Origin: a virus
DNA: 64,000 nt
IMG/VR virus record: IMGVR_UViG_3300031788_000005
Coordinates: 19,068 to 83,067 of that record
Direction: 5' to 3' (one strand)
Positions 41,865 to 55,992 of the stretch are shown one piece after another (position 1 is the first letter of the stretch; each line of letters starts with the position of its first letter). The notes below the pieces were generated by a model. That model was not told the origin of the DNA and did no database searches. It saw only the letters and a list, made by a program, of their open reading frames with translations. A program made the position numbers and the translations under genes.

Positions 41865-41870
41865 GTAAAT

Positions 41871-41957: not shown

Positions 41958-42403
41958 AAATCATTGGTCTCCATCCATTAAAGTTTGTAACGTCAAAGCT
42001 GCTAGATTTGCTTTGGTAGGCCGTTCAATACCGCAGATGGGACACATTTTCCAAGATTTTGGAATATCCCTGTGTAATGAGTCCATCCACCAAGAATAGC
42101 GCCTATTTCCATCAATATATTCATGGAGATATTTAATATGGTCACACCAAGTTTTCATAAAGCCGCTTGCCAGAATGTATCGACTGCCCCAATCATAGTC
42201 CCTGATAAAACCCAAAAATCACCTTCTGCTCGTGGATATGGATTAGGGATAATCTCTACTTCATGTTCTCCCGCTGACAATGGCACTATGATATCTCGCG
42301 GTAGACGCATTTTAGATGCATCAATTAAATTTAATATTCTAGTCGTAATTACTTTCATTAATTTAAGCTTAACAAATTTTTCATTCAAAGTCAAGAAAAA
42401 AAA

Positions 42404-42478
42404 TGGAGGCTAATCAGGGATTTGTTTCGCCCTGTCTTGTAATTTACGAAATTACTGTGCATACAACACCTAAAAGCC
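42404..42478 (-). tRNA. tRNA-Thr(CGT), atypical
   Basis: GTAAT-TTCGTAA-ATTAC; imperfect acceptor; enlarged T-loop. Confidence 0.6.
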
Positions 42479-42483
42479 GAAAG

Positions 42484-42558
42484 TGGAGGACAAGCCGGAA
42501 TTTACATCCGATTCCCAATTTTACCAAAATTGAATTTTATTACATAAACTACAAGTCC
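42484..42558 (-). tRNA. tRNA-Thr(GGT)
   Basis: CAATT-TTGGTAA-AATTG; mismatched acceptor; CCA. Confidence 0.7.
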
Positions 42559-42572
42559 AAAAAATCATAAAT

Positions 42573-42651
42573 TGGTGCTGCGGACAGGAGTTGAACCTGC
42601 ATTATTCCAATTATGCGCTTCCTCTTTAGGAAAGAGTGCCATTACCGCAGC
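42573..42651 (-). tRNA. D-armless tRNA-Arg(CCT)
   Basis: GCTGCGG/CCGCAGC-ACCA, CTCT-TTCCTAA-AGAG, GCAGG-TTCAACT-CCTGT. Confidence 0.65.
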
Positions 42652-42659
42652 GTAAAATC

Positions 42660-42767
42660 GTGCTGACTGTCTGTTGAGTTGGCAATCCCAATTAACGACC
42701 CGACAGCTAGGTGGCTCACTAAACGTGGTGTTCGGTAGCGAATCGAACGCGCCTTTGATATCAGCAC
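42660..42767 (-). ncRNA. permuted tRNA-like (YrlA-like) RNA, weaker copy
   Basis: GTGCTGA/TCAGCAC closing stem; GTTCGATT T-loop precedes an AATTGG D-loop-like segment. Confidence 0.45.
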
Positions 42768-42770
42768 AAA

Positions 42771-42920
42771 TTATTCGTCGTCCCAACCTTGAGGGACTTT
42801 CTTGCCCGTTTCCTTTTCAAACTGGCGGTGCATTTCGTAACGCACATCACCATCGGCAGGGCCAAAATCAGCGTTGATACGAAACCATTTAAGGTATTCA
42901 AGTTCTGTTGCTTCTTCCAT
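42771..42920 (-). CDS. 49-aa protein MEEATELEYLKWFRINADFGPAD... (paralog of 37139-37318)
   Basis: Translated by hand; TTGACA-17-TAATGT-6-ATG promoter. Confidence 0.75.
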   Translation of the reverse strand: MEEATELEYLKWFRINADFGPADGDVRYEMHRQFEKETGKKVPQGWDDE

Positions 42921-42961
42921 ACTCAAACATTATCATCAATGTCGGATTATGTCAAGCGAAA

Positions 42962-43052
42962 TGGAGGAAGGAGCAAATCCCGCCTTTGACACCCCTTTCA
43001 GGGTGCGATGTGTTTAGCAAACACTCCTAGAACCTCGTCTAGTTCACCTTCC
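42962..43052 (-). tRNA. tRNA-Ser(GCT)
   Basis: GTGT-TTGCTAA-ACAC, long variable arm. Confidence 0.8.
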
Positions 43053-43446
43053 ATTGTTCAAAGTTTTCTGCTAATTTTACATCTGGATGTCTTTTTGAAG
43101 CAGAAAAACTAAGATAAATTTTACTTTTACCGCGAGCCAAATGCAACGGAACAAAATAGACCTTATCATTTGCTGGATAATAAATGGCAAAATAATCTAT
43201 TTTGCCTTCGTAATCTTTGCTTACTTGCTGTCCCTTAATTTTGTAAGTAGATTTTCCATCAAATTCGATGCTGTTATTTACTTTTCGTCCTGTTTTTGTT
43301 TGGATGCGAATTAAATTATTATCGTCTTGAACGATTAAATCTACACCCGTATTTTCTCCAAATGGGAGAAATGCCGTTTTCCCTAATTCCAAAACTTTAG
43401 CTAAAACTTTGGCTTCAGAAATACTTCCTTTGCTTTTTGTGTTCAT
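43039..43446 (-). CDS. PD-(D/E)XK endonuclease (PDDEXK_5-like)
   Basis: KG.ISE, PFGEN..VDLI, RIQTKT, IDYFAIY. Confidence 0.8.
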   Translation of the reverse strand: MNTKSKGSISEAKVLAKVLELGKTAFLPFGENTGVDLIVQDDNNLIRIQTKTGRKVNNSIEFDGKSTYKIKGQQVSKDYEGKIDYFAIYYPANDKVYFVPLHLARGKSKIYLSFSASKRHPDVKLAENFEQWKVN

Positions 43447-43486
43447 GTCTATCTAGTAATACACTAGACACGTTTCATTGGGAAAT

Positions 43487-43571
43487 TGGTCGCAATGGTG
43501 GGACTTCCACCCACAAAGGTCGGAGATTTTAAGTTTCCATGCTCTTGTATTCGCTGTCAACCCACATTGCG
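43487..43571 (-). tRNA. tRNA-Leu(TAA), short variable loop and enlarged D region
   Basis: CGCAATG/CATTGCG-ACCA; loop CTTAAAA. Confidence 0.65.
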
Positions 43572-43659
43572 TTGAAATTGGTGTGTTCTTTCCCACCGTC
43601 AGCAGCCAAGGGAGCGGCTTTACCAGCCATCCTCGGTATCGTTTTGTGCGAACGTATAT

Positions 43660-43737
43660 TGGTGCGCCCCCTCGGTAATGCTCCGAGTCCTATCGGGTAA
43701 GAGCCGATTGCTTGCCACTATTAGAGCTTGGAACGCA
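43660..43737 (-). tRNA. tRNA-Lys(CTT)
   Basis: ATCGG-CTCTTAC-CCGAT. Confidence 0.85.
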
Positions 43738-43742
43738 GTAAA

Positions 43743-43818
43743 TGGTTGTCGTGACAGGTGCCGACCCTGCTAAATTCTCCATGTAAAGGAGATAATCATG
43801 CCGATGATACTCACGACA
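43743..43818 (-). tRNA. tRNA-Val(TAC)
   Basis: TCTCC-TTTACAT-GGAGA. Confidence 0.8.
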
Positions 43819-43824
43819 GTAAAA

Positions 43825-43899
43825 TGGATGCCTGTGATGGTGCTGCCCCATCGCCTCGACTTTCAGAGAGTCGCGAACTACTGTTATTCAGAACAGGCA
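43825..43899 (-). tRNA. tRNA-Gln(CTG)
   Basis: CGACT-CTCTGAA-AGTCG; U1-A72. Confidence 0.85.
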
Positions 43900-44366
43900 A
43901 TAAAATTACTTTTCTTGTAATGATTCAGAATGACCGCATTGTGGACATTTCCAACATCTAACAAGTTTTCCTTCTGAATAATGAGTGTATTCTGTTTTAA
44001 TATTTTCATCAACAAAATCAACAGACTCACCCAATTTTAAATTAATTTTGCAGTATTTACATTTTTTATTTTTCATAAATTTAAAATCTCAACAAAAAGG
44101 TTAATTCTTCGCTGAGAATCCAAGGTATATTACTACCCTTGAAAACCCCTATGGTGCACTTTAACCATTCCCCTTGCAAAAAGAACAAGCGTTAAGGGTA
44201 CTAAATCTCTCTAATCCACTCCGTAACTGGAATAAATTTTTCACATTTACAATTAGGACATTTTTTAAAAACCTCGTCTAAATTAAAAATCTCAGAACAT
44301 CCTATGCATTTTTTGAAATTTTGCAATCTTGGTTTAATTTTGTAATAATCTTTGATTTTCATAAAA

Positions 44367-44441
44367 TGGAGCCAAGCCTCGGTAATGCTCCGAGTTCTCT
44401 CGATTACAAGTCGAGTGCATCACTTTGTATGCTTGCAAGGC
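44367..44441 (-). tRNA. tRNA-Thr(TGT)
   Basis: CTCGA-CTTGTAA-TCGAG. Confidence 0.85.
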
Positions 44442-44446
44442 GAAAT

Positions 44447-44522
44447 TGGTGCATCCTGTCGGAACTGCCCCGACATCCCATTCCTTAAGAGGGAAGGCTC
44501 TATCTCGCTGAGTTAAGGATGC
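44447..44522 (-). tRNA. tRNA-Lys(CTT), second copy with an Arg-like body
   Basis: TTCC-CTCTTAA-GGAA; GCATCC acceptor; GATAGAG D-loop. Confidence 0.75.
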
Positions 44523-44791
44523 AAAATTATTAATATATTATTTAATTTCTAAATTATCTAGAACTTCTATTAGTTTAACATCCAAAATTTGGGCATCATC
44601 TTCTGTTAGAGAGCGGTCATAAATCAAACCTTTCGTAGGAGAACCGTATCTCCAATCTTTCCAGTATTTTTTACCATCTCTATCTTGCCAAATTGTTGTT
44701 CCACCGTCACGAATTGTATTAATTTTCTTAACCAAAATTTCTTGCATATTTTTATTATGAATGAAGTTTAGATTTTTGTCAAGGAGAAAAA

Positions 44792-44866
44792 TGGTCCCAG
44801 TAGAAGAAATTGCATCTTTAACTCCGAATGACTTATGAAATCACCGTTCCACTCTGGATTACTGGG
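44792..44866 (-). tRNA. atypical tRNA(CAT), Met/Ile2
   Basis: CCCAGTA/TACTGGG-ACCA; GGTGAT-TTCATAA-GTCATT; very small D arm. Confidence 0.55.
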
Positions 44867-44871
44867 AAAAA

Positions 44872-44947
44872 TGGTGGACATTTCGTGTTACGCTCACGAC
44901 TTTCAACTTTTTCAGAGTTGCACTTTCACTAGATTAGTTTAATGTCC
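44872..44947 (-). tRNA. tRNA-Phe(GAA)
   Basis: CAACT-CTGAAAA-AGTTG. Confidence 0.85.
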
Positions 44948-45340
44948 TTAAATTTTTAATTTATTTTCTATTTGGTCAAGATGTTTTCCCATAAATACTA
45001 GGATTTTATGAGATTGCTCTCTTGCAGCTTTCCATTTTAGTAAATCTTTTGGCTGAACATAACCCTTAGTTTCTACTCTTAAAATTTTATTGGAATTAGT
45101 TAAAATATCAAAATCTACTAAATAAGAATGTTTTTTGTTATCTTCACCAATATAAGGAATTCTTAATTTGGATTTACTCCAATCTAATATCATTCCTTTT
45201 TCTTTTAGTTTATCAAAAATAATACAAGCTCGATACTCATAAGACCCCTGTACTCGAATATTATTATATGTAAGCCATTTCGTTGTTCCACCAGAAACTT
45301 CTAAATTACCAGAAGAAAACATCTTTTTATTGGTAGCCAT
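44948..45340 (-). CDS. TnsA-like PD-(D/E)XK endonuclease (probably 5'-truncated)
   Basis: QGSYE, YLVDF, VETKG; ATG lies inside the tRNA-Arg acceptor stem. Confidence 0.7.
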   Translation of the reverse strand: MATNKKMFSSGNLEVSGGTTKWLTYNNIRVQGSYEYRACIIFDKLKEKGMILDWSKSKLRIPYIGEDNKKHSYLVDFDILTNSNKILRVETKGYVQPKDLLKWKAAREQSHKILVFMGKHLDQIENKLKI

Positions 45341-45406
45341 ACTCGGAATCCCACCGAGAACTAAGGATTAGAAGTCCCCTATGATATGTATTTTCACCAT
45401 ACGGCC
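45331..45406 (-). tRNA. tRNA-Arg(TCT)
   Basis: GGGGA-CTTCTAA-TCCTT. Confidence 0.85.
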
Positions 45407-45498
45407 AGAAATTATGATGGCATCCCATTTAGGAACACCACCAAACCCAAAGGCTCTATTGCAGAGTCAAATGCAAGGAAGAGTTACTGCGGAAGATA

Positions 45499-45588
45499 TG
45501 GTCGGTCTGCGGCGTAACGCTCGCCGTCTAGCTTATTAGGCAGTACCTGCGCCCAAGGCAGGTGGGTTCACTTTTTCCCTACAGACCG
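45499..45588 (-). tRNA. tRNA-Pro(TGG) with long variable region
   Basis: CGGTCTG/CAGACCG-ACCA; CCTGC-CTTGGGC-GCAGG. Confidence 0.8.
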
Positions 45589-46528
45589 ATAAATTTGTTT
45601 TTCTAAAAATCAATTGATTTGAACCCAGAAAATCGGCCACAGATTTAGCTGCTGTTAGTTCGTCATTAAATCTTTTTGAAAATTGTATTTTTCCTTGTTT
45701 TTTAACATTAGCAATCCATTTATTCCTAGACGAACTAAACGAAACATAAAGATATTTAGATGGAAAAACACGACTTATAGGTGTGATTTTTTTAATCCTG
45801 TTTCGTCTTGAAAATCTGGAAATATTTTTCCAATCTATGTTATAATAGACGCACCATTTACGTAGGGTATTATCACTTATATTATATTGTTTAGCAATAG
45901 TTAAAATGGGATGTATCTTAATTAGAGCAATCAAATCCTCTTTGGATGGTCTTCTCTGCTTTCTTCGGTTTTCATTAGAGCAAATAGCACATATATCATT
46001 GTTAGAGTATCCTTTTGATGGTTTCCCACACTCCTTACAAAAATAATATTTTTTATGTTTTTTCCCTGCAAATGTTGATGTCTGACTATGACAATTTGGA
46101 CAAAGAAATTCAAGATTTTCAATTCTATCATCGTCAGAAACTCCATTTTTATGTTCTAATTGTAAGGAAAGTTTCAAATTATTCCATTGTCCTTCATTTG
46201 AGCACTTTGAGCATTTATAAGGCAATAAATTAAATTTAATTAAATATTTTTTAGTACTTACGCGTTTGTGTGGAGAATGTTCCACTAATCTAGTTAAAAA
46301 CTCGTCCTTTGAAACTTCTTTAGTTAATATCGAAGAATGAAGTCTGTTTAGAAAATGGGAAGAGTCTATATTTAGTTCCTTAATTCTATTTTTACAGGTT
46401 ACATAGTTTCCACCTTTATTTTCCATCCCAAAAAACTTTAACACTTGGGACATTGTTTGGCTTGTAAGAATTAGTTTCTTAAAATCTGGTTCTGGATATG
46501 ACCATATGATACTTGTTCTTTTTCGCAT
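45536..46528 (-). CDS. HNH homing endonuclease with HTH and AP2-like C-terminal domains
   Basis: C..C...W....L.LQLEHKNG...D.R.ENL.FLCPNCHSQT; start MRKRT after GTGTAAT. Confidence 0.88.
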   Translation of the reverse strand: MRKRTSIIWSYPEPDFKKLILTSQTMSQVLKFFGMENKGGNYVTCKNRIKELNIDSSHFLNRLHSSILTKEVSKDEFLTRLVEHSPHKRVSTKKYLIKFNLLPYKCSKCSNEGQWNNLKLSLQLEHKNGVSDDDRIENLEFLCPNCHSQTSTFAGKKHKKYYFCKECGKPSKGYSNNDICAICSNENRRKQRRPSKEDLIALIKIHPILTIAKQYNISDNTLRKWCVYYNIDWKNISRFSRRNRIKKITPISRVFPSKYLYVSFSSSRNKWIANVKKQGKIQFSKRFNDELTAAKSVADFLGSNQLIFRKTNLSVCREKVNPPALGAGTA

Positions 46529-46584
46529 ATAGTATATTATACACGAATAATGGTGAACTATGAAGTAGGGGTTCGATATAAATT

Positions 46585-46668
46585 TGGCAGCCCCGATTCG
46601 ATTTGCACGAATGATGTTTATATTTCGGTTCCAAAGACCGACGCGTTCGACTACTCCGCCACGGGGCA
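46585..46668 (-). tRNA. tRNA-Gln(TTG) with long variable region
   Basis: TCGGT-CTTTGGA-ACCGA; G73. Confidence 0.8.
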
Positions 46669-46954
46669 ATAAAATTTCGGGAGCAACGTGTTACTAAACT
46701 AATCTAGTAGACATGACCCCCATCACCATAAAGGTGAGAAGTAAATTAATCTTGTGGAAACAAAAATTTCGCAAGAGAATCGTTATGCTCGTTGACGATT
46801 GTGTTAGCGTGGTCTGGCCACATTGCTTTTCCGAGAGTTACTTCATCTGGAAATCCAAGACATTTAACAACGTCCGCAACATCGTAATCAGTACCGCGTT
46901 TAACGATTCGAACGCCCCATTTGTTATGACGGAAATATTGGTCGTTGGTCATCT

Positions 46955-47458
46955 TTATTTTTTAATAGGAAATTCCAAACAAACCTCTCCTCTATCAGAA
47001 TAGTATGCTCCATCTGTAATTGACGCCTTAGATTTGTAAGCTTTTTTCTTGGAACGGTCATTCAAAAACTCAGCCAAGCATTTTTCATTATGTAAATGAT
47101 ATTGTTTATCTATCCCATCTGGACCTTTTAGGGTAGCAGCAATGGAATCTTCCTTGTCGTCTTTATCTTTGGTGTCGATTGGACGTTTACAGTTGTCACA
47201 AATTGTTTGGATTTTTGCCTCAGCAGTATAAGAAGCGACTGCACTTTTTTGAGTTTCCATTTTCTTGTTGATAAACGACGCCATACAAGCCATATCACAA
47301 AATTCATGTTGTTTTTTATAAGTGGCACCATTTGCTTCTGGCTCGCTAAGAAGAGCAACAGATATGTTTTTATGACCTTCTGGATAATGTTGGCCGAGTT
47401 CAGCGCCGCATTGGTCACACGCAACTACTTGTCTCGCGAAAGATTCTAAATTATTCAT
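46955..47458 (-). CDS. tandem Zn-finger (TRASH/YHS-like) protein
   Basis: CDQC...HEFCDMAC and CDNC...HLHNEKC; start MNNLES after GTGTAAT. Confidence 0.55.
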   Translation of the reverse strand: MNNLESFARQVVACDQCGAELGQHYPEGHKNISVALLSEPEANGATYKKQHEFCDMACMASFINKKMETQKSAVASYTAEAKIQTICDNCKRPIDTKDKDDKEDSIAATLKGPDGIDKQYHLHNEKCLAEFLNDRSKKKAYKSKASITDGAYYSDRGEVCLEFPIKK

Positions 47459-47536
47459 ACAACAAGTATTACACGCAAAAATACCCAAATAAAAAGAAAA
47501 AATCATACATTATTACCATTTTTGTGCATAATATAT

Positions 47537-47634
47537 TGAATTGAAAATGATACCGACTAACCGTTTTAGCCGTCCTTATGTGCTCCTAAGAAGAGTGTCT
47601 CTGTTTATCAGTTTCAATTCACCATAAGGGCGGT
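47537..47634 (+). promoter_or_regulatory. pseudoknotted 5' UTR, copy 2
   Basis: TGAATTGAAA/TTTCAATTCA crossed with GCCGTCCTTATG/CATAAGGGCGGT, ending 4 nt before the ATG. Confidence 0.55.
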
Positions 47635-47638
47635 AATT

Positions 47639-48322
47639 ATGATTTTTAACGACCTGCCAAAAACCTTCGGAATATATAAATTTACCAACAAAATAAATGG
47701 TCGCATCTATATTGGTAAGTCTAATAATCTTCGGTATAGAATAAAACACCATTTAAGAAAAAGTGCTAATCAAGTAATAGATAGAGCTATAAAAAAATAT
47801 GGATTAGATAATTTTGATATTGAAATTATTGATACATTTGAAAATATTGACAATACGGAACTTCTAGCTTTAGAGACTTCGTATATTGAATATTTTGAAT
47901 CTTTGGTTGGTCAAAATGGATATAACATTTGCCTGTTTGGTTTGAATAATACAGGGTGTAAAGTTTCAAATGAAACTAAATATAAAATAAGCATCGCACA
48001 TTTTGGAAAAAAACTTTCTCAAGAACATCGTCGTAAAATTAGTTTAAGTAGTTTGGGTAGAAAGGCTTCGGAAGAAACAAAAATCAAAATATCCATATCC
48101 CGTTTAGGAGATAAAAATCCTAATAAAAAATGGAAAGCCTATGGAAATCCGACTTTTAACAAAAACATATATCATTTCCAAAACCGAATAACTAATGAAA
48201 CTTTTACCGGCTATCAATATGATTTTTATACAAAATACAATCTACGCTCAACAAATGTAAATAGAATTATAAGTGGTAAAGACAAATCATTTAAAAATTG
48301 GATATTTTTAGGCCGTCTTTAA
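47639..48322 (+). CDS. GIY-YIG homing endonuclease with NUMOD3 repeats
   Basis: GIYKFTNKINGRIYIGKS, AIKKYG, GYN, S.ETK.KIS repeats. Confidence 0.92.
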   Translation: MIFNDLPKTFGIYKFTNKINGRIYIGKSNNLRYRIKHHLRKSANQVIDRAIKKYGLDNFDIEIIDTFENIDNTELLALETSYIEYFESLVGQNGYNICLFGLNNTGCKVSNETKYKISIAHFGKKLSQEHRRKISLSSLGRKASEETKIKISISRLGDKNPNKKWKAYGNPTFNKNIYHFQNRITNETFTGYQYDFYTKYNLRSTNVNRIISGKDKSFKNWIFLGRL

Positions 48323-48850
48323 ACTAAGATTTTTCCTACCCACTTTGTCTGGCAGCGAGTATAAAAGAGAGTTAACTGAAAATTTTTCTCCCTTTAAACC
48401 TTCGTGACCATCCAACTCCTTGTGGCTACCCTTTTTAACGTATGCTAGGGTGGCATGAGCATGATAAATTGGATAAGTTGTTTGAATTGAATTTTTAAAT
48501 TTGTCTTTTAAAGCGTAGTGAAGTTTTTGAGCATCTGGACTAATTACTTCAGCCTTTAAAACATCATAATCTGGACATTCAAAACGGCTTACAGAGCCTA
48601 ATTCAAAAGCTATAGATTCTTGATTTTCCAGAAAAGCTTTAAGTGGTTCAGTTTCAAAATCAGGGTCAAAACCATAAAGTACCGTTACATGATACTCGGT
48701 CTCTTTGCCATCTCCCGCAAGATTACTATCAGAAATATGTTTGTCGCTAAAAGTAGTGAGTTTTTGTGACAAATCTTTGCTAATCATCGCCATTAAACAG
48801 CCCTTGGAAACTCCCTCCTTGGCGTAGGCCAGTAAATCAATTATTATCAT
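48308..48850 (-). CDS. 2H phosphodiesterase (T4 gp57B/Acb1- or LigT-like)
   Basis: Two HxT motifs: HVTVLYG and HATLAY. Confidence 0.8.
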   Translation of the reverse strand: MIIIDLLAYAKEGVSKGCLMAMISKDLSQKLTTFSDKHISDSNLAGDGKETEYHVTVLYGFDPDFETEPLKAFLENQESIAFELGSVSRFECPDYDVLKAEVISPDAQKLHYALKDKFKNSIQTTYPIYHAHATLAYVKKGSHKELDGHEGLKGEKFSVNSLLYSLPDKVGRKNLSLKTA

Positions 48851-48858
48851 ATATTATT

Positions 48859-49173
48859 TTACACTTTTAATAGCGGAAAATATTGAAAACATTCAGGCCA
48901 GTCAACGCGGGGACAAAAAACAATGGCAATTTCTTGATTATTTAAATTCGATTCGGTAACGATAACGTAGTCTTTTTGAGTCTTTAGCATTTCGAATTCG
49001 ATATCCCTTACTTCAACAACTACCTTGCGAAAAGACTGGGAGAGCCACTCTTGATAAACGGGGTCATTCCCGAATTTAAGATGCGCCATTAAAACGCCGT
49101 GTGCTGCTCCCAAAACTTTATGAGAAGGAAGGGACTTCTTAATACAGATGTACATTTTTAGATTATTTTTCAT
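48859..49173 (-). CDS. peptidyl-tRNA hydrolase, Pth2-like
   Basis: KMYICIK, AAHG, W....FRKVV, C-terminal F.PR...F..L. Confidence 0.75.
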   Translation of the reverse strand: MKNNLKMYICIKKSLPSHKVLGAAHGVLMAHLKFGNDPVYQEWLSQSFRKVVVEVRDIEFEMLKTQKDYVIVTESNLNNQEIAIVFCPRVDWPECFQYFPLLKV

Positions 49174-49424
49174 ATCAGCGTCAAACCAGTTGGGTCTTTT
49201 AAAGCTTTTACTAAATTTCTGGCTGAGTTTCTAGCATCTTTGCGAGTAGGGATTCTCAAGCCTTCAAGGACACTGCCTTTAGGAAAATGGGTAAGACCTT
49301 TGTATGGATTTTTTTGATTTGATTTCATAAAATTTTTGCTGGAAGTTAGTGTCCAGCGGCACTGATGCAATTCGCCTATGCAACTAAGCTGGCCGATTAC
49401 TAACTCATCGGACCACTCGGAGAT

Positions 49425-49500
49425 TGGTATTGCCGACCAGAGTCGCACTGGCTAGGAATAGCTTGAAAGGCTACTTACTCCACTCTTTGTATTCAGCAAC
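49425..49500 (-). tRNA. tRNA-Glu(TTC)
   Basis: GTAGC-CTTTCAA-GCTAT. Confidence 0.75.
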
Positions 49501-49505
49501 ATAAA

Positions 49506-49886
49506 TTATTTTTTATCCTCATATAGAGTGACGTAATTCTTTCCATATTTTTTGATTGTGTAATCTAGAAAAGGCTTCATGTCTTTTTGGAAAATTACTT
49601 TGAGTTTTCCCTTAAATTGTGAAATTTTTTCTTTATTTTTAGGGGTTAACCATCCTTTTATCTCCACATATTCGTCGTTAATTTTAAAATCGGGATAAAA
49701 TTTAAATGTTCTGCCTTCAAAAACATAATCAAATCCAAAAGTATTTCTTGTAAATAAAATTCCATGTTCGATATTGTAAATAACCCAAGCCAATTCCCAA
49801 GAACTATTACAATAATAACCTTTATACCAACCCATGTGGCCCCGGCCAGCCTTTTCCCTGTATCCTCCGCGATTAGAATAATCCAT
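49506..49886 (-). CDS. PD-(D/E)XK endonuclease (TnsA-like), probably 5'-truncated
   Basis: SSWE, YPDF, VEIKGW; an in-frame KFCSREC Zn-finger remnant upstream runs into the tRNA. Confidence 0.75.
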   Translation of the reverse strand: MDYSNRGGYREKAGRGHMGWYKGYYCNSSWELAWVIYNIEHGILFTRNTFGFDYVFEGRTFKFYPDFKINDEYVEIKGWLTPKNKEKISQFKGKLKVIFQKDMKPFLDYTIKKYGKNYVTLYEDKK

Positions 49887-49981
49887 TCCCTTCCGTGTGC
49901 ATTCACGGGAACAAAATTTTCGTTTACCGTCAAAATAATCAGCAAACCTTTTGTGACAATAATGATTTTGATTGATAATAT

Positions 49982-50057
49982 TGGTAGGGTTAGCTGGTTT
50001 TGCGCCAATGCGTTTAAACTTTGAGAAAGTTTCGTGCTACTATTACACCATAACCCC
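49982..50057 (-). tRNA. tRNA-Glu(CTC)
   Basis: AAACT-TTCTCAA-AGTTT; bulged T stem. Confidence 0.7.
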
Positions 50058-50059
50058 AT

Positions 50060-50097
50060 AAAAAAGCCCGCGTTGCTACTTTTACACTATACTGCTA
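50060..50097 (-). pseudogene. orphan 5' half of a tRNA (TTT-like loop)
   Basis: AGCAGTA-TA-GTGTAAAAGTAGCAAC-GCGGG-CTTTTTA, then directly the next tRNA. Confidence 0.4.
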
Positions 50098-50184
50098 CAT
50101 TAGTCTAGCTTCTTTGTCCTCGACGGACGCCATTTAATGCAACTGTGTATTCGGTATTGCGCCGAATCCTCGGGACGATTGATA

Positions 50185-50252
50185 GCCAGTGTGCTGCCGC
50201 TGCACCAATACCGGCGAGGCCGGTATGTGGGATTCGAACCCACGTCTCTGAC
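50185..50252 (-). ncRNA. circularly permuted tRNA domain (YrlA/Y RNA-like)
   Basis: GTCAG, GTGGG-TTCGAAT-CCCAC, ATACCGGC-CTC-GCCGGTAT, GTGC-AGCGGCA-GCAC, CTGGC. Confidence 0.8.
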
Positions 50253-50328
50253 ACGATTGGACACCAGTGATTCATTAAAGAATTCTCCAAGTTAAAGGCT
50301 TGGCATGTTTCCATAGGCTGGTGAAATT

Positions 50329-50418
50329 TGGTGCAACCGGAGGGACTCGCACCCACGATGGAGCTATTAGCTCACAAGATTAAAAGTCTTGTCCTTTCGC
50401 TGCTAAGGGAACGATTGC
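50329..50418 (-). tRNA. tRNA-Lys(TTT) with a type II-like variable arm
   Basis: CAAGA-CTTTTAA-TCTTG; GAGCT-AAT-AGCTC arm. Confidence 0.8.
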
Positions 50419-50425
50419 ATTAAAT

Positions 50426-50503
50426 TGGTAGCGCAAGTGGCTTGAGGAACCACAACCTATCCCCTATCAAGGGAGTACTCTTACTCATTTGAGTTACTGC
50501 GCC
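50426..50503 (-). tRNA. tRNA-Ile(GAT)
   Basis: TCCC-TTGATAG-GGGA. Confidence 0.8.
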
Positions 50504-50521
50504 ATAAATTAATTAACTCTT

Positions 50522-50631
50522 TGGTTGTTTTCGGACGACTACTCTTGATGCCTCTCAAGTCGATTCAGACGTTACGGATTCAAAGTCCGTCACAACCTGT
50601 CTCTGCCCCGTCTATGCTATTCGAATAACAT
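50522..50631 (-). ncRNA. enlarged tRNA-like RNA with a Gln(TTG) anticodon hairpin
   Basis: ACGGA-CTTTGAA-TCCGT; TGTT-A-TTCG/CGAA-AACA-ACCA. Confidence 0.45.
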
Positions 50632-50658
50632 ATTCAGCCTCTTTTCCGTGAGTTAAAA

Positions 50659-50732
50659 TGGTGGGGTGTATAGGAATCGCACCTATGTTACGAAAGTGTC
50701 ATTCTCGTGTCCTAACTACTAGACTAACTCCC
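50659..50732 (-). tRNA. tRNA-Val(GAC)
   Basis: CGAGA-ATGACAC-TTTCG. Confidence 0.7.
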
Positions 50733-50737
50733 CGAAA

Positions 50738-50800
50738 TTGGTGAGTCCCAAGTTTCTAAACTTGGCCAGTCTCCTATTCGAAGAATGGCTTTTAAGACCC
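50738..50800 (-). ncRNA. approx. 63-nt mini tRNA-like RNA
   Basis: GGGTC/GACTC-ACCA, CCAAG/CTTGG T-like arm, one further hairpin. Confidence 0.45.
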
Positions 50801-50806
50801 ATAAAT

Positions 50807-50886
50807 TGGTCGCGGCGATGGGTACTGCCCCCACACGAATATTCCGATTAAAAGTCGGCTGCACGTTCTTTGGTAGCTTCACCGCG
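50807..50886 (-). tRNA. tRNA-Lys(TTT), second copy
   Basis: CCGA-CTTTTAA-TCGG. Confidence 0.75.
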
Positions 50887-50892
50887 AAAAAT

Positions 50893-50966
50893 TGGTTCCG
50901 AACCTTGGTAACGCTCCAAGTCTTAATGGGTAACAACCATTTGTGCGACTTTCACACTCGTAGGGA
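50893..50966 (-). tRNA. tRNA-Asn(GTT)
   Basis: AATGG-TTGTTAC-CCATT; mismatched acceptor. Confidence 0.75.
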
Positions 50967-51061
50967 ATAAAAAAAATCAATGCAAATAACCACACCTAGA
51001 TATTAGGCTACAAGTATATCGAGTCCTTGACGGCTCTTACGAAATCCGCCTTGCATTAAAT

Positions 51062-51149
51062 TGGCTCTAGAGGCTTGAGTTGAACAAGCAGTGCTTTTTA
51101 AAGCGGTGGATTAACAATCCACTGAGTTTACCAATTCTTCTACTCTAGA
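51062..51149 (-). tRNA. tRNA-Asn(GTT) with long variable arm
   Basis: GTGGA-TTGTTAA-TCCAC; GCTTT/AAAGC arm; G73. Confidence 0.85.
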
Positions 51150-51156
51150 ACCAATT

Positions 51157-51450
51157 TTACTTGCTGACCTCATTTTTGACTATACACTCATTTGCTGGGG
51201 AATTTAGCAGCGTGGCGTCCAAGCCTTTTATGTTCCCTCTATCTTATCACTAAGATGCAAAATTTACCCTAACGATTGAATAATTGCTACACGGCCAAGC
51301 TCATAATCGCATTATGAAGTATTAACGACAAATCTCCTTCTCTATGTGCGTTTTTAAAATGGACGAAAACGCTGACTACTTACGATATACCCTTTGGGGC
51401 CGTCGTCCCATGGGCTAGGGAATTAATTCCCGCAATGACAGACCAAGTAA
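51157..51450 (-). ncRNA. approx. 294-nt unknown structured RNA
   Basis: TTACTTG..CTG/CAG-CAAGTAA closing stem; several hairpins; no ORF. Confidence 0.5.
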
Positions 51451-51494
51451 ATTAAATTTTTGTCTTCACTACATTTCAAGTGTAATAACAATAT

Positions 51495-51902
51495 GTGAGA
51501 GAAAAAATATTACAATTACGAAAAGAAGGTAAAACATTCAGAGAAATACAAAAACTTGTTCCATGTAGCGCATCAACAGTTTGGTATCATTGTGGAAAAG
51601 GCGCAAAGGAAAAACATAGAAGACAAAAAAGGAAAAACTATGCTCGTATTCAAATAGAGATAAAATCTCACTTCGAAGGAAAATGCAAAATTTGTGGATA
51701 TAATAAATGTTTGTCAGCTCTGGAATTTCATCATCTCGATTCCTCTAAAAAGGAAAAAACAGTATCTAGGTTTATCCAAGCTGGTTCAAAAAGTAAAGCC
51801 TATAAAGAAGCAGAAAAATGTATTCTAATATGTGCTAATTGCCATAGAGAATTACATGAAAACGAAAAGCTTATTCGCCATCCTACAATGACAGACCATT
51901 AA
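51495..51902 (+). CDS. HNH endonuclease with N-terminal HTH
   Basis: CKICGYNKC.SALEFHH.D, C.LICANCHRELH. Confidence 0.85.
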   Translation: MREKILQLRKEGKTFREIQKLVPCSASTVWYHCGKGAKEKHRRQKRKNYARIQIEIKSHFEGKCKICGYNKCLSALEFHHLDSSKKEKTVSRFIQAGSKSKAYKEAEKCILICANCHRELHENEKLIRHPTMTDH

Positions 51903-51983
51903 TTTAAAACAGTTTCGCCTCCCTATAACACTATAGACTTTATTTTTTCTTAACCAGCGCGATTGCTGGTGAGGTTACTAAAT

Positions 51984-52058
51984 TGGAGCACTTGGGGAAT
52001 TTTGAAATCCCGACGTTCACTTTGGAAGAGTGACACTCTGCCTCTGAGTTACAAGTGC
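51984..52058 (-). tRNA. tRNA-Gly(TCC)
   Basis: TCACT-CTTCCAA-AGTGA; U73. Confidence 0.9.
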
Positions 52059-52063
52059 ATAAA

Positions 52064-52136
52064 TGGATGCAGCGATTGGGATTGCACCAATGGAGTTCGT
52101 CTTATGAGGGCGAATTGAATACTAATTCTCACTGCG
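52064..52136 (-). tRNA. tRNA-Met(CAT), initiator-like
   Basis: C1:A72 mismatch; loop CTCATAA. Confidence 0.7.
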
Positions 52137-52219
52137 ATAAAAAATGGTCGTAAAAACTATTAAAGTAATCTCAAAAATCATCTTTCTCTTTGAGTTTACT
52201 TTTGTGTATCTATTAATAT

Positions 52220-52744
52220 ATGAAAAATAAATATACCAAAGAACAAGTAGAAAACGCGGTTTTAGAATCTAAATGTTATTCAGATGTTTTTAGAAATTTA
52301 GGACTTAAAATAAATGGTGGTTCTTATCATTGGATTAAAAATTTAATAAAAAAACATGATATAAATATTACTCATTTCTTAACATCAAAAGAATTATTTA
52401 AATTAAATCATTTTATTAAAAAAACTAATTTTTTGGGTATACAAAAAATTGAATCTAATCAACGCATCAGAGCTAAAAAACTTAGAAAATTTATGTTAGA
52501 TAATAATGTTGATTATAAATGTAACATTTGTAATATTTTAGAATGGCTCGGGAAACCTATGACGCTAGATATAGACCACATTGACGAAAATTGTCTAAAT
52601 AATCAAATTGAAAATCTTCAATTTCTTTGTCCAAATTGTCATAGACAGAAGACTCAATTAAAATTAAATGGTTGCGTTCGCCAGAATCGGACTGGTCCTT
52701 TGCCTTATGAGGACAACGTGCGCCATTACACTCCCACGCAATAA
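52220..52744 (+). CDS. HNH endonuclease
   Basis: CNIC...WLGKP.TLDIDHID....NN.IENLQFLCPNCHRQ. Confidence 0.88.
   Translation: MKNKYTKEQVENAVLESKCYSDVFRNLGLKINGGSYHWIKNLIKKHDINITHFLTSKELFKLNHFIKKTNFLGIQKIESNQRIRAKKLRKFMLDNNVDYKCNICNILEWLGKPMTLDIDHIDENCLNNQIENLQFLCPNCHRQKTQLKLNGCVRQNRTGPLPYEDNVRHYTPTQ
52669..52740 (-). tRNA. tRNA-Met(CAT)
   Basis: TTGTC-CTCATAA-GGCAA. Confidence 0.75.
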
Positions 52745-52746
52745 AT

Positions 52747-52822
52747 TGGTCGCTTTCACAAGACTTCTTCCTTGTATTTCCAGCCTCATTGCTGGTGTCC
52801 TAGAATTTTAGACGATACGGCG
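52747..52822 (-). pseudogene. degenerate tRNA-like gene
   Basis: D and T arms and CCA present, but a 6-nt anticodon loop and broken acceptor. Confidence 0.5.
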
Positions 52823-52827
52823 ATAAA

Positions 52828-52903
52828 TGGTACAGGCGGTGGGACTCGCACCCACGAAAACTCCGCCCCAAACGGAGTGGCATAGCTACTAACCGACGCC
52901 TAT
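52828..52903 (-). tRNA. tRNA-Pro(TGG)
   Basis: CTCCG-TTTGGGG-CGGAG. Confidence 0.75.
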
Positions 52904-52974
52904 AAATTTTAAAATGTTAGTCCCATTTATTCTTTGACGAGAAAATAATGGTTCGGTACTCAACTAGCATAAAT

Positions 52975-53052
52975 TGGAAGTCAGTTTCGGTAACGCTCCG
53001 AATATACGAGCAGGTTTGCAATCTGCGGGGTTTTCTTACTCCCTCACTGACT
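52975..53052 (-). tRNA. tRNA-Cys(GCA)
   Basis: GCAG-A-TTGCAAA-C-CTGC; U73. Confidence 0.85.
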
Positions 53053-53061
53053 ATTATAAAA

Positions 53062-53138
53062 TGGCGGACATGACCGGACCTGCCCCGGCTTAATCATCGT
53101 TGACAACGATGCGATTCGACTCCTTCATCTTCATATCC
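53062..53138 (-). tRNA. tRNA-Asp(GTC)
   Basis: CATCG-TTGTCAA-CGATG; G73. Confidence 0.85.
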
Positions 53139-53144
53139 ATAAAT

Positions 53145-53235
53145 TGGTGCATCCAGAAGGATTTCCACCTTCACGCTACTATTACTTCGCAACAGAGTCT
53201 AAATCTGTCATGGCTGGTTGTTTCATCATGGATGC
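53145..53235 (-). tRNA. tRNA-Leu(TAG)
   Basis: ACAGA-TTTAGAC-TCTGT; long variable arm. Confidence 0.85.
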
Positions 53236-54285
53236 ATTTCTTAAAATTAACTTATCAGAATTAAAATATTTTGCAATCGCTTCTGCTGCCTCCAACTCTG
53301 TTTCTCCTCTCTTAAAAAATAATGCTTTGCCGTTTTTTCTCACAATGGCTCTCCATTTAGAATTTCCTTTATCAACTTGAACATAAGCATATTGAGACGC
53401 CCTAATCACTTTTTCTTTGACTGATTTGGGGTTCGCTTTTTTATAAAAATGAGAAAATGGAGACAAACTTTTATAGTCTATTTGATAATCTTCGCACCAA
53501 CGGACAATTGCGTTGCCGGTTAAGTTAAAACTTTTCGCTATTTGCGAGAACGACTTTCCCTTTATTAAAGAAATTAATTCATTTTTTGATGGCCTAATTA
53601 CTTTACGCTTATTTAATCTAGGGGCAGTTCTCCAGAATGGATTAGGAATATATTTTAATTTATCCTCTCTCGTTGGAGCTTTTAAAAATTCCAGATTGTA
53701 TTTTTCTTTAATCTTCTTGATTCTGTTATGAGATTTCCCATAAAGATTTCTTCCTAATTTTCTTAATACGTCGGTTGCCGAGTAAGATGTTTTAATGGCT
53801 TCTACTAAGACCTGTTCGTCAACCGGTTTTGAGATTTTTCTGATTCCAAAGTTGGTTGTTTTTGAATGGCAATTTGGGCATAAAATCTGTAAATTTTCCA
53901 AATGATTATTATGATGATTCCCGTCTTTGTGGTGAAGTTCTAGTGGAATATCGTCTCCTAGCCATGATGTATTTGAGCATACTTCGCACTTCCTTTCTTT
54001 TATCTGTTCGTCAAAAAGGCGGAACTTTAATGGGTTAGAGTTAATCCTCCTTTTTCCATTAAAATAATCAGAAATTGGATATTTGAATCCAAATATGCCG
54101 CCTCTCCTACTAGCTTGCCCTAAAAAATGAGAATCATCTAAATTAAACTTTTTAATTGTGTTGTAGATTTTTTTATAATTCTCCCCTCCGCGTTCATACA
54201 TCCCCATTGCTTTAAGAATTGCGGCTACTGATTTTAATTGTTTTTGTTGAATTAACTTGACAGCTTCTTGTTCGTTATATTTCAT
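53182..54285 (-). CDS. HNH homing endonuclease with HTH and AP2-like domains (paralog of 45536-46528)
   Basis: CEVC...WLG..IPLELHHKDG...NN.LENLQILCPNCHS; RPSK.ELI.LIK; SQY.YV...KW.A. Confidence 0.9.
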   Translation of the reverse strand: MKYNEQEAVKLIQQKQLKSVAAILKAMGMYERGGENYKKIYNTIKKFNLDDSHFLGQASRRGGIFGFKYPISDYFNGKRRINSNPLKFRLFDEQIKERKCEVCSNTSWLGDDIPLELHHKDGNHHNNHLENLQILCPNCHSKTTNFGIRKISKPVDEQVLVEAIKTSYSATDVLRKLGRNLYGKSHNRIKKIKEKYNLEFLKAPTREDKLKYIPNPFWRTAPRLNKRKVIRPSKNELISLIKGKSFSQIAKSFNLTGNAIVRWCEDYQIDYKSLSPFSHFYKKANPKSVKEKVIRASQYAYVQVDKGNSKWRAIVRKNGKALFFKRGETELEAAEAIAKYFNSDKLILRNASMMKQPAMTDLDSVAK

Positions 54286-54342
54286 AAGACACTCTTTAAG
54301 ATATTATACCGCTGATTGTGCTAAAATTACAATATATTTAAA

Positions 54343-54421
54343 ATGGTGCAAAACTCCAGATTTCCACTGGAAAGCCACTAATTTTGAGTTAGCGAGGTAT
54401 GGTAGTTCCCGTCAGTTTTGC
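54343..54421 (-). tRNA. tRNA-Leu(CAA) lacking the long variable arm
   Basis: GCTAA-CTCAAAA-TTAGT; GCAAAAC/GTTTTGC-ACCA. Confidence 0.75.
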
Positions 54422-54422
54422 A

Positions 54423-54512
54423 TGGTGTCATTGATAGGACTCGCACCTATACGCTGCTTTGATTTCGCCCAAAGTTCTCAACCTTGGATGTATTCTATTC
54501 CATCACAATGAC
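54423..54512 (-). tRNA. tRNA-Leu(GAG)
   Basis: CAAGG-TTGAGAA-CTTTG; long variable arm. Confidence 0.85.
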
Positions 54513-54516
54513 AAAT

Positions 54517-54627
54517 TGGTGGGAGATGCGAAGCTTTTCACTATCGCAGCAATTCGAATTCAACTGGCCAGTTAACATAAGAATTAGAGTGTTATATTAC
54601 CCCGCGTTTATCTTTCGCCAATCTCCC
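54517..54627 (-). ncRNA. 111-nt enlarged tRNA-like RNA
   Basis: Perfect GGGAGAT/ATCTCCC-ACCA; D arm; no 7-nt anticodon loop; approx. 35-nt variable arm. Confidence 0.55.
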
Positions 54628-54632
54628 GTAAA

Positions 54633-54710
54633 TGGTAGTTCGTGCAGGCTGATGTCCTGCGCCTCTTCGCCTATAAAGCAAACGCTCTTAATCGTGTAAG
54701 CTAACGAACC
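54633..54710 (-). tRNA. tRNA-Ile(TAT)
   Basis: TTTGC-TTTATAG-GCGAA. Confidence 0.8.
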
Positions 54711-54718
54711 ATAAAAAT

Positions 54719-54795
54719 TGGTAGGTATTAAAGGATTCTAACCTATATCTTTCACGTTCGAAGCGTGACACTCTATACATTTGAGATAAATACCC
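54719..54795 (-). tRNA. tRNA-Arg(TCG)
   Basis: TCACG-CTTCGAA-CGTGA. Confidence 0.85.
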
Positions 54796-54813
54796 ATTAA
54801 ATGTTTCTTAAAA

Positions 54814-54891
54814 TGGTGTCCCAAGAAAGAGTCGAACTTTCATAATCCAATTATGCACAAGACGCTTCGCAAGCGTAGCCATTACTGGGAC
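54814..54891 (-). tRNA. D-armless tRNA-Arg(GCG)
   Basis: GTCCCAG/TTGGGAC-ACCA; ACGC-TTGCGAA-GCGT; GAAAG-TTCGACT-CTTTC. Confidence 0.65.
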
Positions 54892-55146
54892 GTAAAATTT
54901 TGAGTTCAATATTTCATTCTCACTAGAGCTAGGGAATCGCACCAATGCCATATTAAACTTGGTAGTCAAGCAGTAGTAGGAAATAATTTTCCAACCGTTT
55001 TGACGACCCTAAAACTCGCTGATTTTTTTCAGAAACCGAGGCTAAACCAGTAAAACCTATCCGACTTCACTGTTTTTCTCTGCACTTACTTCTCCGCTTT
55101 GCCGCCACGTCCCCGTCCGAATACGACAACTAACTCGCGGCAAAAA

Positions 55147-55222
55147 TGGTCAGGTGGCCGAGTGCCGACCTCGGTTAGTCAGTTTCACGAACTGAGAAAT
55201 TAGCCGTTATTATACGCACCTG
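55147..55222 (-). tRNA. tRNA with GTG (His) anticodon on an atypical body
   Basis: TCAGT-TCGTGAA-ACTGA (C33); C1-G72 and A73, no obvious G-1. Confidence 0.55.
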
Positions 55223-55286
55223 TAAAAATGCTAGGATAAATTTCTCTATCCCGCGTCTAACCGTCGAAACGATTAGAGGAGTAAAA

Positions 55287-55371
55287 TGGTGGTAGTTGAG
55301 GAAATTGCATCCCCGTAGGCCGAAGCCAACGCGTTTACAGCGCGTCACAATTGCTACTCTGTCAAACTACC
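55287..55371 (-). tRNA. tRNA-Tyr(GTA)
   Basis: ACGCG-CTGTAAA-CGCGT; GGC-TTCG-GCC variable arm. Confidence 0.9.
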
Positions 55372-55936: not shown

Positions 55937-55992
55937 AAAATATTTCATCTGCTAATCAGACCGTTTTTCGGTTCAATCTGCAAACGTTAAAA

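What the first reader, a model, noticed from the sequence alone, without database searches (positions are those of the whole stretch)
42573..54891. Two D-armless tRNA-Arg genes with a D-loop-like motif moved 3' of the anticodon arm
Seen: 42573-42651 (CCT) and 54814-54891 (GCG) share one layout: a 7-bp acceptor with ACCA, only TAATGGC where the D arm should be, a 4-bp anticodon stem with 7-nt loop, then GCATAATTGGA(A/T)TA before a canonical T arm. The stems differ between copies but stay paired, while the single-stranded motifs are identical, which suggests selection and not decay. Known: G18G19 docks on the T-loop and A20 is the main ArgRS identity element; AATTGGA looks like that D-loop. Inference: an arm-permuted tRNA fold that supplies the elbow and A20 from the variable position. 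A GCG anticodon is also rare in bacteria.
Basis: partly seen in the sequence, partly recalled or inferred. Interest (0 to 1): 0.85.

Follow-up and report, generated by a model that had tools for sequence, protein, structure and literature searches.

The report
Phage arginine tRNAs with permuted core
Both loci are real, conserved phage genes that look like arginine tRNAs with every standard tRNA part, except that one D-stem strand and the D-loop come after the anticodon arm; the layout is widespread in phages, including Felix O1, and I found it in no paper.

Summary

They are not isolated. Pattern scans and a covariance model found about 60 distinct relatives in IMG/VR contigs and at least 252 GenBank phage records, including Felix O1, phAPEC8-like, Klebsiella and jumbo phages. 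Every member has an arginine anticodon.

"D-armless" is not quite right. The five bases after U8-A9 act as the D-stem 3' strand. They pair with the four bases just before the AAUUGGA D-loop motif, and compensatory changes are seen at pairs 12-23, 11-24 and 10-25. So the D/anticodon domain is permuted, not lost.

Function as a tRNA is inferred, not shown:
- U8, A9, C35, G18-G19-A20 and the T-loop are conserved.
- The genes share the leader and CCA trailer of neighbouring tRNA genes.
- In Felix O1 the permuted Arg(UCU) fills the cluster slot that a canonical Arg(UCU) holds in phage Sf14.

No expression or charging data were obtained. tRNA finders mostly miss or mislabel these genes, and I found no paper describing them. 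Earlier agents of this scan reported the same family on other DNA.

The parts
42573..42651 (-). Permuted-core tRNA-Arg(CCU) gene with encoded CCA (RNA 5' end at 42651)
   Evidence: Sequence. Family model R1 83.6 bits. Rfam tRNA 30.2 bits. Not called by ARAGORN.
42638..42644 (-). U8 A9 followed by AUGGC, read as positions 22-26 (the D-stem 3' strand placed before the anticodon arm)
   Evidence: U8-A9 are invariant in 53 of 53 members. Pairs 23-12 and 24-11 covary.
42621..42637 (-). Anticodon arm ACUCU-UUCCUAA-AGAGG; anticodon CCU at 42628-42630
   Evidence: This helix is 97% paired across the family, with compensatory changes.
42606..42616 (-). GCAU (positions 10-13, D-stem 5' strand) plus AAUUGGA (A14 A15 U16 U17 G18 G19 A20)
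   Evidence: A20 is present in 53 of 53 members although the scan left it free.
42584..42605 (-). Linker AUAAU ending in the invariant A-U, then T arm GCAGG-UUCAACU-CCUGU
   Evidence: The A-U before the T stem is present in 53 of 53 members. The T stem is 98.5% paired.
54814..54891 (-). Permuted-core tRNA-Arg(GCG) gene with encoded CCA (RNA 5' end at 54891)
   Evidence: Sequence. R1 77.1 bits. Rfam tRNA 24.6 bits, below the gathering score. Not called by ARAGORN.
54878..54884 (-). U8 A9 followed by AUGGC (positions 22-26)
   Evidence: Same evidence as for the first copy.
54861..54877 (-). Anticodon arm UACGC-UUGCGAA-GCGUC; anticodon GCG at 54868-54870
54846..54856 (-). GCAU (positions 10-13) plus AAUUGGA (positions 14-20)
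54825..54845 (-). Linker UUAU, then T arm GAAAG-UUCGACU-CUUUC
54722..54795 (-). Context: the phage's canonical tRNA-Arg(UCG), 22 nt downstream of the GCG gene on the RNA strand
   Evidence: ARAGORN. Rfam 56.5 bits.

Best explanation
The two loci are genes for arginine tRNAs of a conserved phage family whose core is wired in a different order from the cloverleaf. CCU would read AGG, and GCG would read CGC and CGU.

The order of parts is:
- acceptor 5' strand;
- U8 A9;
- D-stem 3' strand (positions 22-26);
- anticodon arm;
- a 4-8 nt linker;
- D-stem 5' strand (10-13) and D-loop (A14 A15 Y16-17 G18 G19 A20);
- a 4-10 nt segment that ends in an invariant A-U;
- T arm;
- acceptor 3' strand, then N73 and CCA.

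Compared with a normal tRNA, the chain is rejoined 9 to 22, 47 to 10, and 21 to 48.

Shown here: all four helices exist and are kept by compensatory changes.

Inferred: the split D-stem stacks on the anticodon stem and G18-G19 dock on the T-loop, giving the usual L-shape. Host ArgRS reads A20 and C35 and charges the RNA. The phage uses it in translation alongside its canonical Arg(UCG).
For: Family:
- About 60 distinct members in IMG/VR. Every hit with 21-nt spacing that has a paired acceptor and a T arm has the same layout.
- At least 252 GenBank phage records carry it.

Isotype and conserved positions:
- Only arginine anticodons occur: UCU 29, CCU 13, ACG 5, UCG 4, GCG 2.
- C35, U8, A9, A20 and the A-U before the T stem are invariant, although the scan left them free.
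- The discriminator is A or G in 51 of 53.

Helices:
- Acceptor, anticodon and T stems are 97-98% paired, with two-sided changes at every pair.
- Split D-stem pair 23-12 is U-A 43, C-G 8. Pair 24-11 is G-C 43, U-A 6, A-U 2, C-G 2, with none unpaired.
- Pair 25-10 is Watson-Crick in the divergent lineages.
- 20 cells show two-sided change, which 0 of 500 shuffles reach.

Model: members score 60-85 bits, canonical tRNAs 40 bits or less, and 770 kb of bacterial DNA 25 bits or less. An untrained member, Alishewanella phage Slicko01, scores 81 bits.

Context:
- Both genes carry the same ATTTWAY leader and CCA plus (A)TTT trailer as the other ~17 tRNA genes of the array.
- The phage's three Arg anticodons do not overlap, and their codons are all used.

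Felix O1:
- The permuted Arg(UCU) sits between Ile(GAU) and Ser(UGA). Related phage Sf14 has a canonical Arg(UCU) in that slot.
- The Felix O1 genome paper lists no AGA-reading tRNA and says one would be expected for that over-used codon (PMC3185647).
Against: - No RNA, charging or decoding data. The one RNA-library run that holds this phage has no contig over either gene, which says nothing either way.
- In the main subfamily, which includes both window copies, pair 10-25 is G.G. Only two or three stem pairs are then certain, and the exact register is open. A shifted pairing of G25 and C26 with the linker's conserved G-Y is equally possible.
- A test for anticodon complementarity with canonical Arg genes across loci was not significant (3 overlaps against 4.2 expected, P = 0.33). 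One lineage carries both a canonical and a permuted UCU.
- Whether the rejoined chain can adopt the L-shape was not modelled.
Confidence: 0.7

Rival explanations
1. A tRNA-like RNA that is not used in translation. It could be a decoy or sponge for a host enzyme that binds or cuts tRNA-Arg, such as an anticodon nuclease, or some other tRNA mimic.
For: - Conservation of the anticodon loop, T arm and acceptor would also be expected of a mimic.
- One lineage keeps a canonical and a permuted Arg(UCU) side by side.
- Phage tRNAs are known to counter tRNA-targeting defences (PMC11555353, seen).
- This phage encodes an RNA ligase.
Against: - Five different Arg anticodons from both codon boxes occur. 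C35, A20 and an A or G discriminator are kept, which is the pattern expected for ArgRS recognition and not for one nuclease target.
- In Felix O1 the element fills the syntenic slot of a canonical Arg(UCU), and it is that phage's only candidate AGA decoder.
Confidence: 0.15
2. A truly D-armless tRNA. UAAUGGC would be an unpaired connector, and the post-anticodon segment a free or self-folded extra arm carrying a D-loop mimic.
For: - A local hairpin (bases 11-13 with the invariant A-U-G49) is compatible in 94% of cells.
- In the window's first copy, GCAU could pair with AUGC.
- Pairs 13-22 and 10-25 are often not standard in the main subfamily.
Against: - The local hairpin shows no two-sided change. 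It also needs G49, which pairs with position 65 in the T stem (G-C 37, G-U 15, A-U 1).
- Pairs 23-12 and 24-11 change on both sides in several lineages and are never broken when correctly aligned.
Confidence: 0.1
3. Decayed tRNA pseudogenes, or chance tRNA-like sequence.
For: ARAGORN does not call them and the Rfam scores are marginal.
Against: - There are hundreds of conserved copies with compensatory changes in every stem and invariant functional positions.
- The model separates them cleanly from canonical tRNAs.
Confidence: 0.02
4. A tRNA(CAU) (Met or Ile2) with a hairpin inserted in its 5' half. CAUAAUUGGA is identical to the anticodon loop plus 3' stem of canonical phage tRNA(CAU) genes.
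For: - The plus strand weakly matches Rfam Plastid-ycf2 5'UTR through CCAATTATG. From memory I take that model to be the antisense of a plastid tRNA(CAU) gene; this was not checked.
- Canonical tRNA(CAU) genes L184 and L189 share the motif and score 35-40 bits with R1.
Against: - The five bases that would have to pair with UUGGA do not (2 of 5 in the first copy), and position 33 would be G.
- The upstream hairpin has a perfect anticodon-loop form and only Arg anticodons.
Confidence: 0.01

Closest known systems
Canonical class I bacterial and phage tRNA-Arg (Rfam RF00005), e.g. this phage's Arg(UCG) at 54722-54795 and Sf14's Arg(UCU)
   Same: 7-bp acceptor, anticodon arm with C35, standard T arm, G18-G19-A20 motif, U8, A or G at position 73, and CCA. 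Total length is the same (75-80 nt). In Felix O1 it occupies the same cluster slot as the canonical gene in Sf14.
   Different: The D-stem 5' strand and D-loop lie after the anticodon arm, so the D arm is not a hairpin. There is no ordinary 44-48 variable loop. ARAGORN misses them, and Rfam scores them at or below threshold.
D-armless mitochondrial tRNAs of animals, e.g. Ascaris mt tRNA-Ser(UCU) (review PMC7609411)
   Same: No D hairpin between the acceptor and anticodon stems.
   Different: The mitochondrial tRNAs have lost the D-loop and its contact with the T-loop (from general knowledge). The phage family keeps a D-stem (split), the GG motif and a standard T-loop, and keeps full length.
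Circularly permuted tRNA genes of the red alga Cyanidioschyzon merolae, and tRNAs circularly permuted in vitro (from memory: Soma et al. 2007; Pan, Gutell and Uhlenbeck 1991; not read here)
   Same: tRNA segments occur in a non-standard order. The in vitro work indicates that the tRNA fold tolerates moved chain ends.
   Different: In those cases the whole molecule is permuted, and in the alga processing restores a normal tRNA. Here the acceptor ends are normal and only the inner 10-47 domain is permuted, so the mature RNA itself would be non-cloverleaf.
Class II tRNAs and allo-tRNAs with long variable arms (PMC5389517)
   Same: A long segment lies between the anticodon arm and the T arm. One GenBank record labels a member tRNA-Ser.
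   Different: Class II tRNAs have a normal D arm and a self-paired variable arm. Here there is no D hairpin, and the long segment pairs with bases upstream of the anticodon arm.

Membership tests
Canonical tRNA (Rfam RF00005 / cloverleaf) | Score at or above the Rfam gathering threshold (29 bits) | tested here: inconclusive
   The first copy scores 30.2 bits (passes) and the second 24.6 bits (fails). Both are aligned with the D-arm region skipped.
Canonical tRNA (Rfam RF00005 / cloverleaf) | D stem-loop between position 9 and the anticodon stem | tested here: not met
   Only 5 nt lie between A9 and the anticodon stem. ARAGORN makes no call.
Canonical tRNA (Rfam RF00005 / cloverleaf) | 7-bp acceptor, anticodon arm with a 7-nt loop and U33, 5-bp T stem with a UUCRANY loop | tested here: met
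   These helices are 97-98% paired across 53 members.
Arginine isoacceptor (identity set known for E. coli ArgRS: A20, C35, U/G36, A/G73; from the literature, e.g. PMC9976931, not re-read) | C35, U or G at 36, an A after G18-G19, and A or G at 73 | tested here: met
   Both copies have them. Across the family, C35 and A20 are present in 53 of 53 and A/G73 in 51 of 53.
Arginine isoacceptor | Charged with arginine by ArgRS | not testable with these tools
   Needs an aminoacylation assay.
Permuted-core phage tRNA-Arg family (defined here and by earlier agents of this scan; not found in print) | Order: acceptor, U8 A9, 22-26, anticodon arm, linker, 10-13, AAY(Y)GGA, linker ending in A-U, T arm, acceptor | tested here: met
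   R1 scores are 83.6 and 77.1 bits. Both copies are in the training set, but members outside it score 61-85 bits (for example Slicko01 81, Felix O1 65).
Permuted-core phage tRNA-Arg family | Split D-stem: positions 23-24 pair with 12-11 | tested here: met
   Both copies have U23-A12 and G24-C11. Covariation across lineages supports the pairing.
D-armless (mitochondrial-type) tRNA | No D-stem and no D-loop/T-loop elbow motif | tested here: not met
   A split D-stem, the GG-A motif and a standard T-loop are present.
Class II tRNA (long variable arm) | A self-paired variable arm with covariation, plus a normal D arm | tested here: not met
   The local hairpin shows no two-sided change and competes with the T stem. 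There is no D hairpin.
Permuted tRNA gene (C. merolae type) | The 3' half lies upstream of the 5' half, and the acceptor strands are not at the gene's ends | tested here: not met
   The acceptor strands are at the two ends, with CCA at the 3' end.

The most novel reading that the evidence does not exclude
A natural elongator tRNA that is not a cloverleaf. Its inner domain is circularly permuted, yet it folds into an L-shape, is charged by the host's ordinary ArgRS and works on the ribosome. It is maintained in hundreds of phages, including Felix O1 and E. coli K-12 phages. The different wiring might spare it from host enzymes that recognise the normal D-arm or core of tRNA-Arg.
Probability: 0.6. 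Interest if true: 0.9.

Novelty: new variant of a known kind. Interest (0 to 1): 0.8.

Why it matters
Outside animal mitochondria, the order of arms in the tRNA cloverleaf is treated as universal. A conserved, widespread family with a different strand order would show that the L-shaped fold and recognition by ArgRS, RNase P, EF-Tu and the ribosome do not need the standard connectivity.

There are practical consequences too:
- Hundreds of phage genomes lack or mislabel an arginine tRNA. In the GenBank records sampled, most have no feature there; labels seen were tRNA-OTHER, tRNA-TERM, tRNA-Ser and overlapping CDS calls.
- Analyses of phage codon usage against tRNA content are therefore off. The "missing" AGA tRNA of Felix O1 is one example.
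- The scaffold could interest people who design orthogonal tRNAs.
- Because members occur in cultured phages of E. coli K-12, Salmonella and Klebsiella, the question is directly testable.

Tried and rejected
- **tRNA(CAU) with an insertion:** rejected. The anticodon stem would not pair and position 33 would be G.
- **Self-paired variable arm:** 94% compatible but with no covariation, and it conflicts with the T-stem pair 49-65.
- **Expression:** one peat metatranscriptome (X24, contigs only) holds parts of the tRNA region, but no contig covers either gene. This is no evidence either way.
- **Anticodon complementarity with canonical Arg genes across 18 loci:** not significant.
- **Cellular genomes:** Absence from cells is not established.
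- **Megablast of 42000-56500 against GenBank phages:** no match.
- **Gordonia and Mycobacterium phage hits (L318, L320):** tRNA 3' fragments with no acceptor partner, probably attP-type. They are not members.
- **L289 hit with anticodon CGG:** 32 bits with R1, so not a member.
- **Third GCATAATTGGA at 59916:** coding sequence, a coincidence.
- **Earlier check of this family's claim:** I could not learn what an earlier check found wrong with a related claim ("part of it fell"). Further look-ups gave nothing.
- **Literature:** seven searches and three papers read found no description. Only the held open-access library was searched.


Full report
**Observation.** Both elements lie on the minus strand inside a 14-kb array of about 19 tRNA genes. 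In RNA orientation the first reads GCUGCGG-UAAUGGC-ACUCU-UUCCUAA-AGAGG-AAGC-GCAUAAUUGGA-AUAAU-GCAGG-UUCAACU-CCUGU-CCGCAGC-A-CCA. The second has the same plan with different stems and anticodon GCG. ARAGORN finds 11 tRNAs in the window but neither of these. Rfam's tRNA model scores them 30.2 and 24.6 bits (gathering score 29) and skips the D-arm region. The description and coordinates are correct.

**A family, not a curiosity.** The pattern TAATGGC-N(17-25)-GCATAATTGG hit 61 IMG/VR loci. The hits with a 21-nt spacer that also have a paired acceptor and a T arm (about 40) all share the same tRNA-like layout with an arginine anticodon. Two scans each left one half free:
- With the 5' motif free, it is U-A-(A/U/C)-U-G-G-C.
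- With the 3' motif free, it is GCAU-AA-(UU/U/C)-GGA. That is the variation a real D-loop shows at positions 16/17.

A structure-only scan that did not fix the stem sequences found 53 distinct members. Their anticodons are UCU 29, CCU 13, ACG 5, UCG 4 and GCG 2. A covariance model (R1) gives members 60-85 bits, canonical tRNAs 40 bits or less, and 770 kb of bacterial DNA 25 bits or less. The 83-kb phage record holds exactly two members.

**The D-arm is split, not missing.** GCAU-AAUUGGA reads like D-stem positions 10-13 followed by A14 A15 U16 U17 G18 G19 A20. The 7 nt after the acceptor read like U8 A9 followed by positions 22-26. Divergent lineages test this:

| Lineage | 22-26 | 10-13 |
|---|---|---|
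| Cultured enterobacterial phages | UCUCA | GAGU |
| Bas94 | UCUUC | AAGU |
| IMG/VR variants | AUAGC | GUAU |
| IMG/VR variants | UACCC | GGUU |
| IMG/VR variant | UCGAC | UCGU |

On the 53-sequence alignment:
- Pair 23-12 is U-A 43, C-G 8. The two "unpaired" rows are a one-column alignment shift of the GGUU members.
- Pair 24-11 is G-C 43, U-A 6, A-U 2, C-G 2, with none unpaired.
- Pair 25-10 is Watson-Crick only outside the main subfamily, where it is G.G.
- 20 cells change on both sides, and 0 of 500 shuffles reach that.

A rival local hairpin (bases 11-13 with the invariant A-U-G49) is compatible but shows no two-sided change, and it takes G49 away from its covarying partner 65. The acceptor, anticodon and T stems are 97-98% paired with compensatory changes at every pair.

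The chain therefore runs 9 to 22...26, then 27-43, a linker, 10-21, a linker, and 48-49. This is a circular permutation of the inner domain. Whether U13 pairs with position 22 or with the invariant A before U48, and the register at 10-25 in the main subfamily, remain open.

**Evidence that it works as tRNA-Arg (inferred).**
- Positions the scan left free are invariant: U8, A9, C35, A20 and the A-U before the T stem. The discriminator is A or G in 51 of 53, and CCA is encoded in 34 of 53. C35, A20 and A/G73 form the known E. coli ArgRS identity set (established knowledge).
- In this window, both genes have the same A/T-rich leader and CCA-(A)TTT trailer as every other tRNA gene of the array.
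- The phage has three Arg anticodons that do not overlap: CCU and GCG (both permuted) and UCG (canonical). Their codons are all used (AGG 6.0, CGC 6.1, CGU 8.7 per thousand).
- In Felix O1 the member lies at 25951-26029 (65.2 bits), between Ile(GAU) and Ser(UGA). Related phage Sf14 has a canonical Arg(UCU) in that slot and no permuted gene.
- The Felix O1 genome paper lists 22 tRNAs with only Arg-ACG. It notes that a tRNA for the over-used AGA codon would have been expected (PMC3185647).

**What is not shown.** There are no expression or charging data. The only RNA-library run holding this phage has no contig over either gene. Complementarity with canonical Arg genes across loci is not significant, and one lineage has both forms of UCU. 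A decoy role is therefore not excluded.

**Distribution and annotation.** The window is part of a T4-like phage (rIIA, rIIB, RNA ligase, thymidylate synthase) that recurs in peat metagenomes. Members occur in at least 252 GenBank records:
- Felixounavirus (119 near-identical copies);
- phAPEC8-like coliphages;
- Klebsiella Mydovirus and Sugarlandvirus;
- jumbo phages such as PBECO4;
- Bas94;
- in addition to those records, the Alishewanella phages Slicko01 and Slickus01.

In the rows sampled, most have no feature at that place. Others say tRNA-OTHER, tRNA-TERM or tRNA-Ser, or have an overlapping CDS call.

**Novelty.** Seven full-text searches and the main review of non-canonical tRNAs gave no description. 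Earlier agents of this scan reported the same family on other genomes, and one related claim is flagged as partly failed, without detail. I reached the permuted-core reading before seeing those notes, and I tested it independently here. It is best classed as a new variant of a known kind (tRNA).

Noticed in passing
window 51155-51452 (-): A raiA-motif-like RNA between tRNA genes. It scores 56.7 bits (E = 1e-11), below Rfam's gathering score of 101, and has a 113-nt insertion.
   Followed up: no
window 45499-45588, 46588-46668, 50332-50418, 51065-51149 (-): tRNA-Pro, Gln, Lys and Asn are 81-90 nt long. Gln has a 9-nt insertion in the variable region, and Lys and Asn have 12-14 nt hairpin insertions there. 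This is unusual for these isotypes.
   Followed up: no
window 44449-44522 (-): A tRNA-Lys(CUU)-like gene with a non-standard T-loop (GGCAGUU). ARAGORN and Rfam's gathering threshold both miss it.
   Followed up: partly
window 45334-45406, 49985-50057, 50429-50503, 54636-54710, 55996-56065 (-): Five more tRNA genes that only Rfam finds (31.7-43.1 bits) and ARAGORN does not call.
   Followed up: no
window 50227-50243 (-): A perfect T arm (GUGGG-UUCGAAU-CCCAC) outside any called tRNA. It gives a weak tmRNA hit and a weak R1 hit. A first-reader note (e1-6109753) calls this region a permuted tRNA domain.
   Followed up: no
window 42660-42767 (-): First-reader notes (e1-6109760, e1-6109749) describe another permuted tRNA-like RNA directly upstream of the first Arg gene. 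I did not examine it.
   Followed up: no
window 41000-57000 (-): All ~19 tRNA genes share an ATTTWAY leader just before position 1 and an encoded CCA followed by (A)TTT. This suggests one common processing context.
   Followed up: partly
window 4078-5088 (-), 10729-12813 (-), 14402-15487 (-): RNA ligase (phrog_968), rIIA and rIIB genes, marking a T4-like phage. An RNA ligase together with a large tRNA array fits a tRNA-repair or counter-defence theme.
   Followed up: no
window 45688 and 49640: Contigs of two peat DNA runs join 49640 to 45688 with the same 30 extra letters between them. This indicates a rearranged variant of the tRNA region in the population (table 5c).
   Followed up: no
L333 (Felix O1 AF320576.1 26003-26395) and relatives: The annotated CDS 'ORF100' (labelled HNH endonuclease in other records) starts inside the permuted tRNA gene, so its start is probably called too far upstream.
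   Followed up: no
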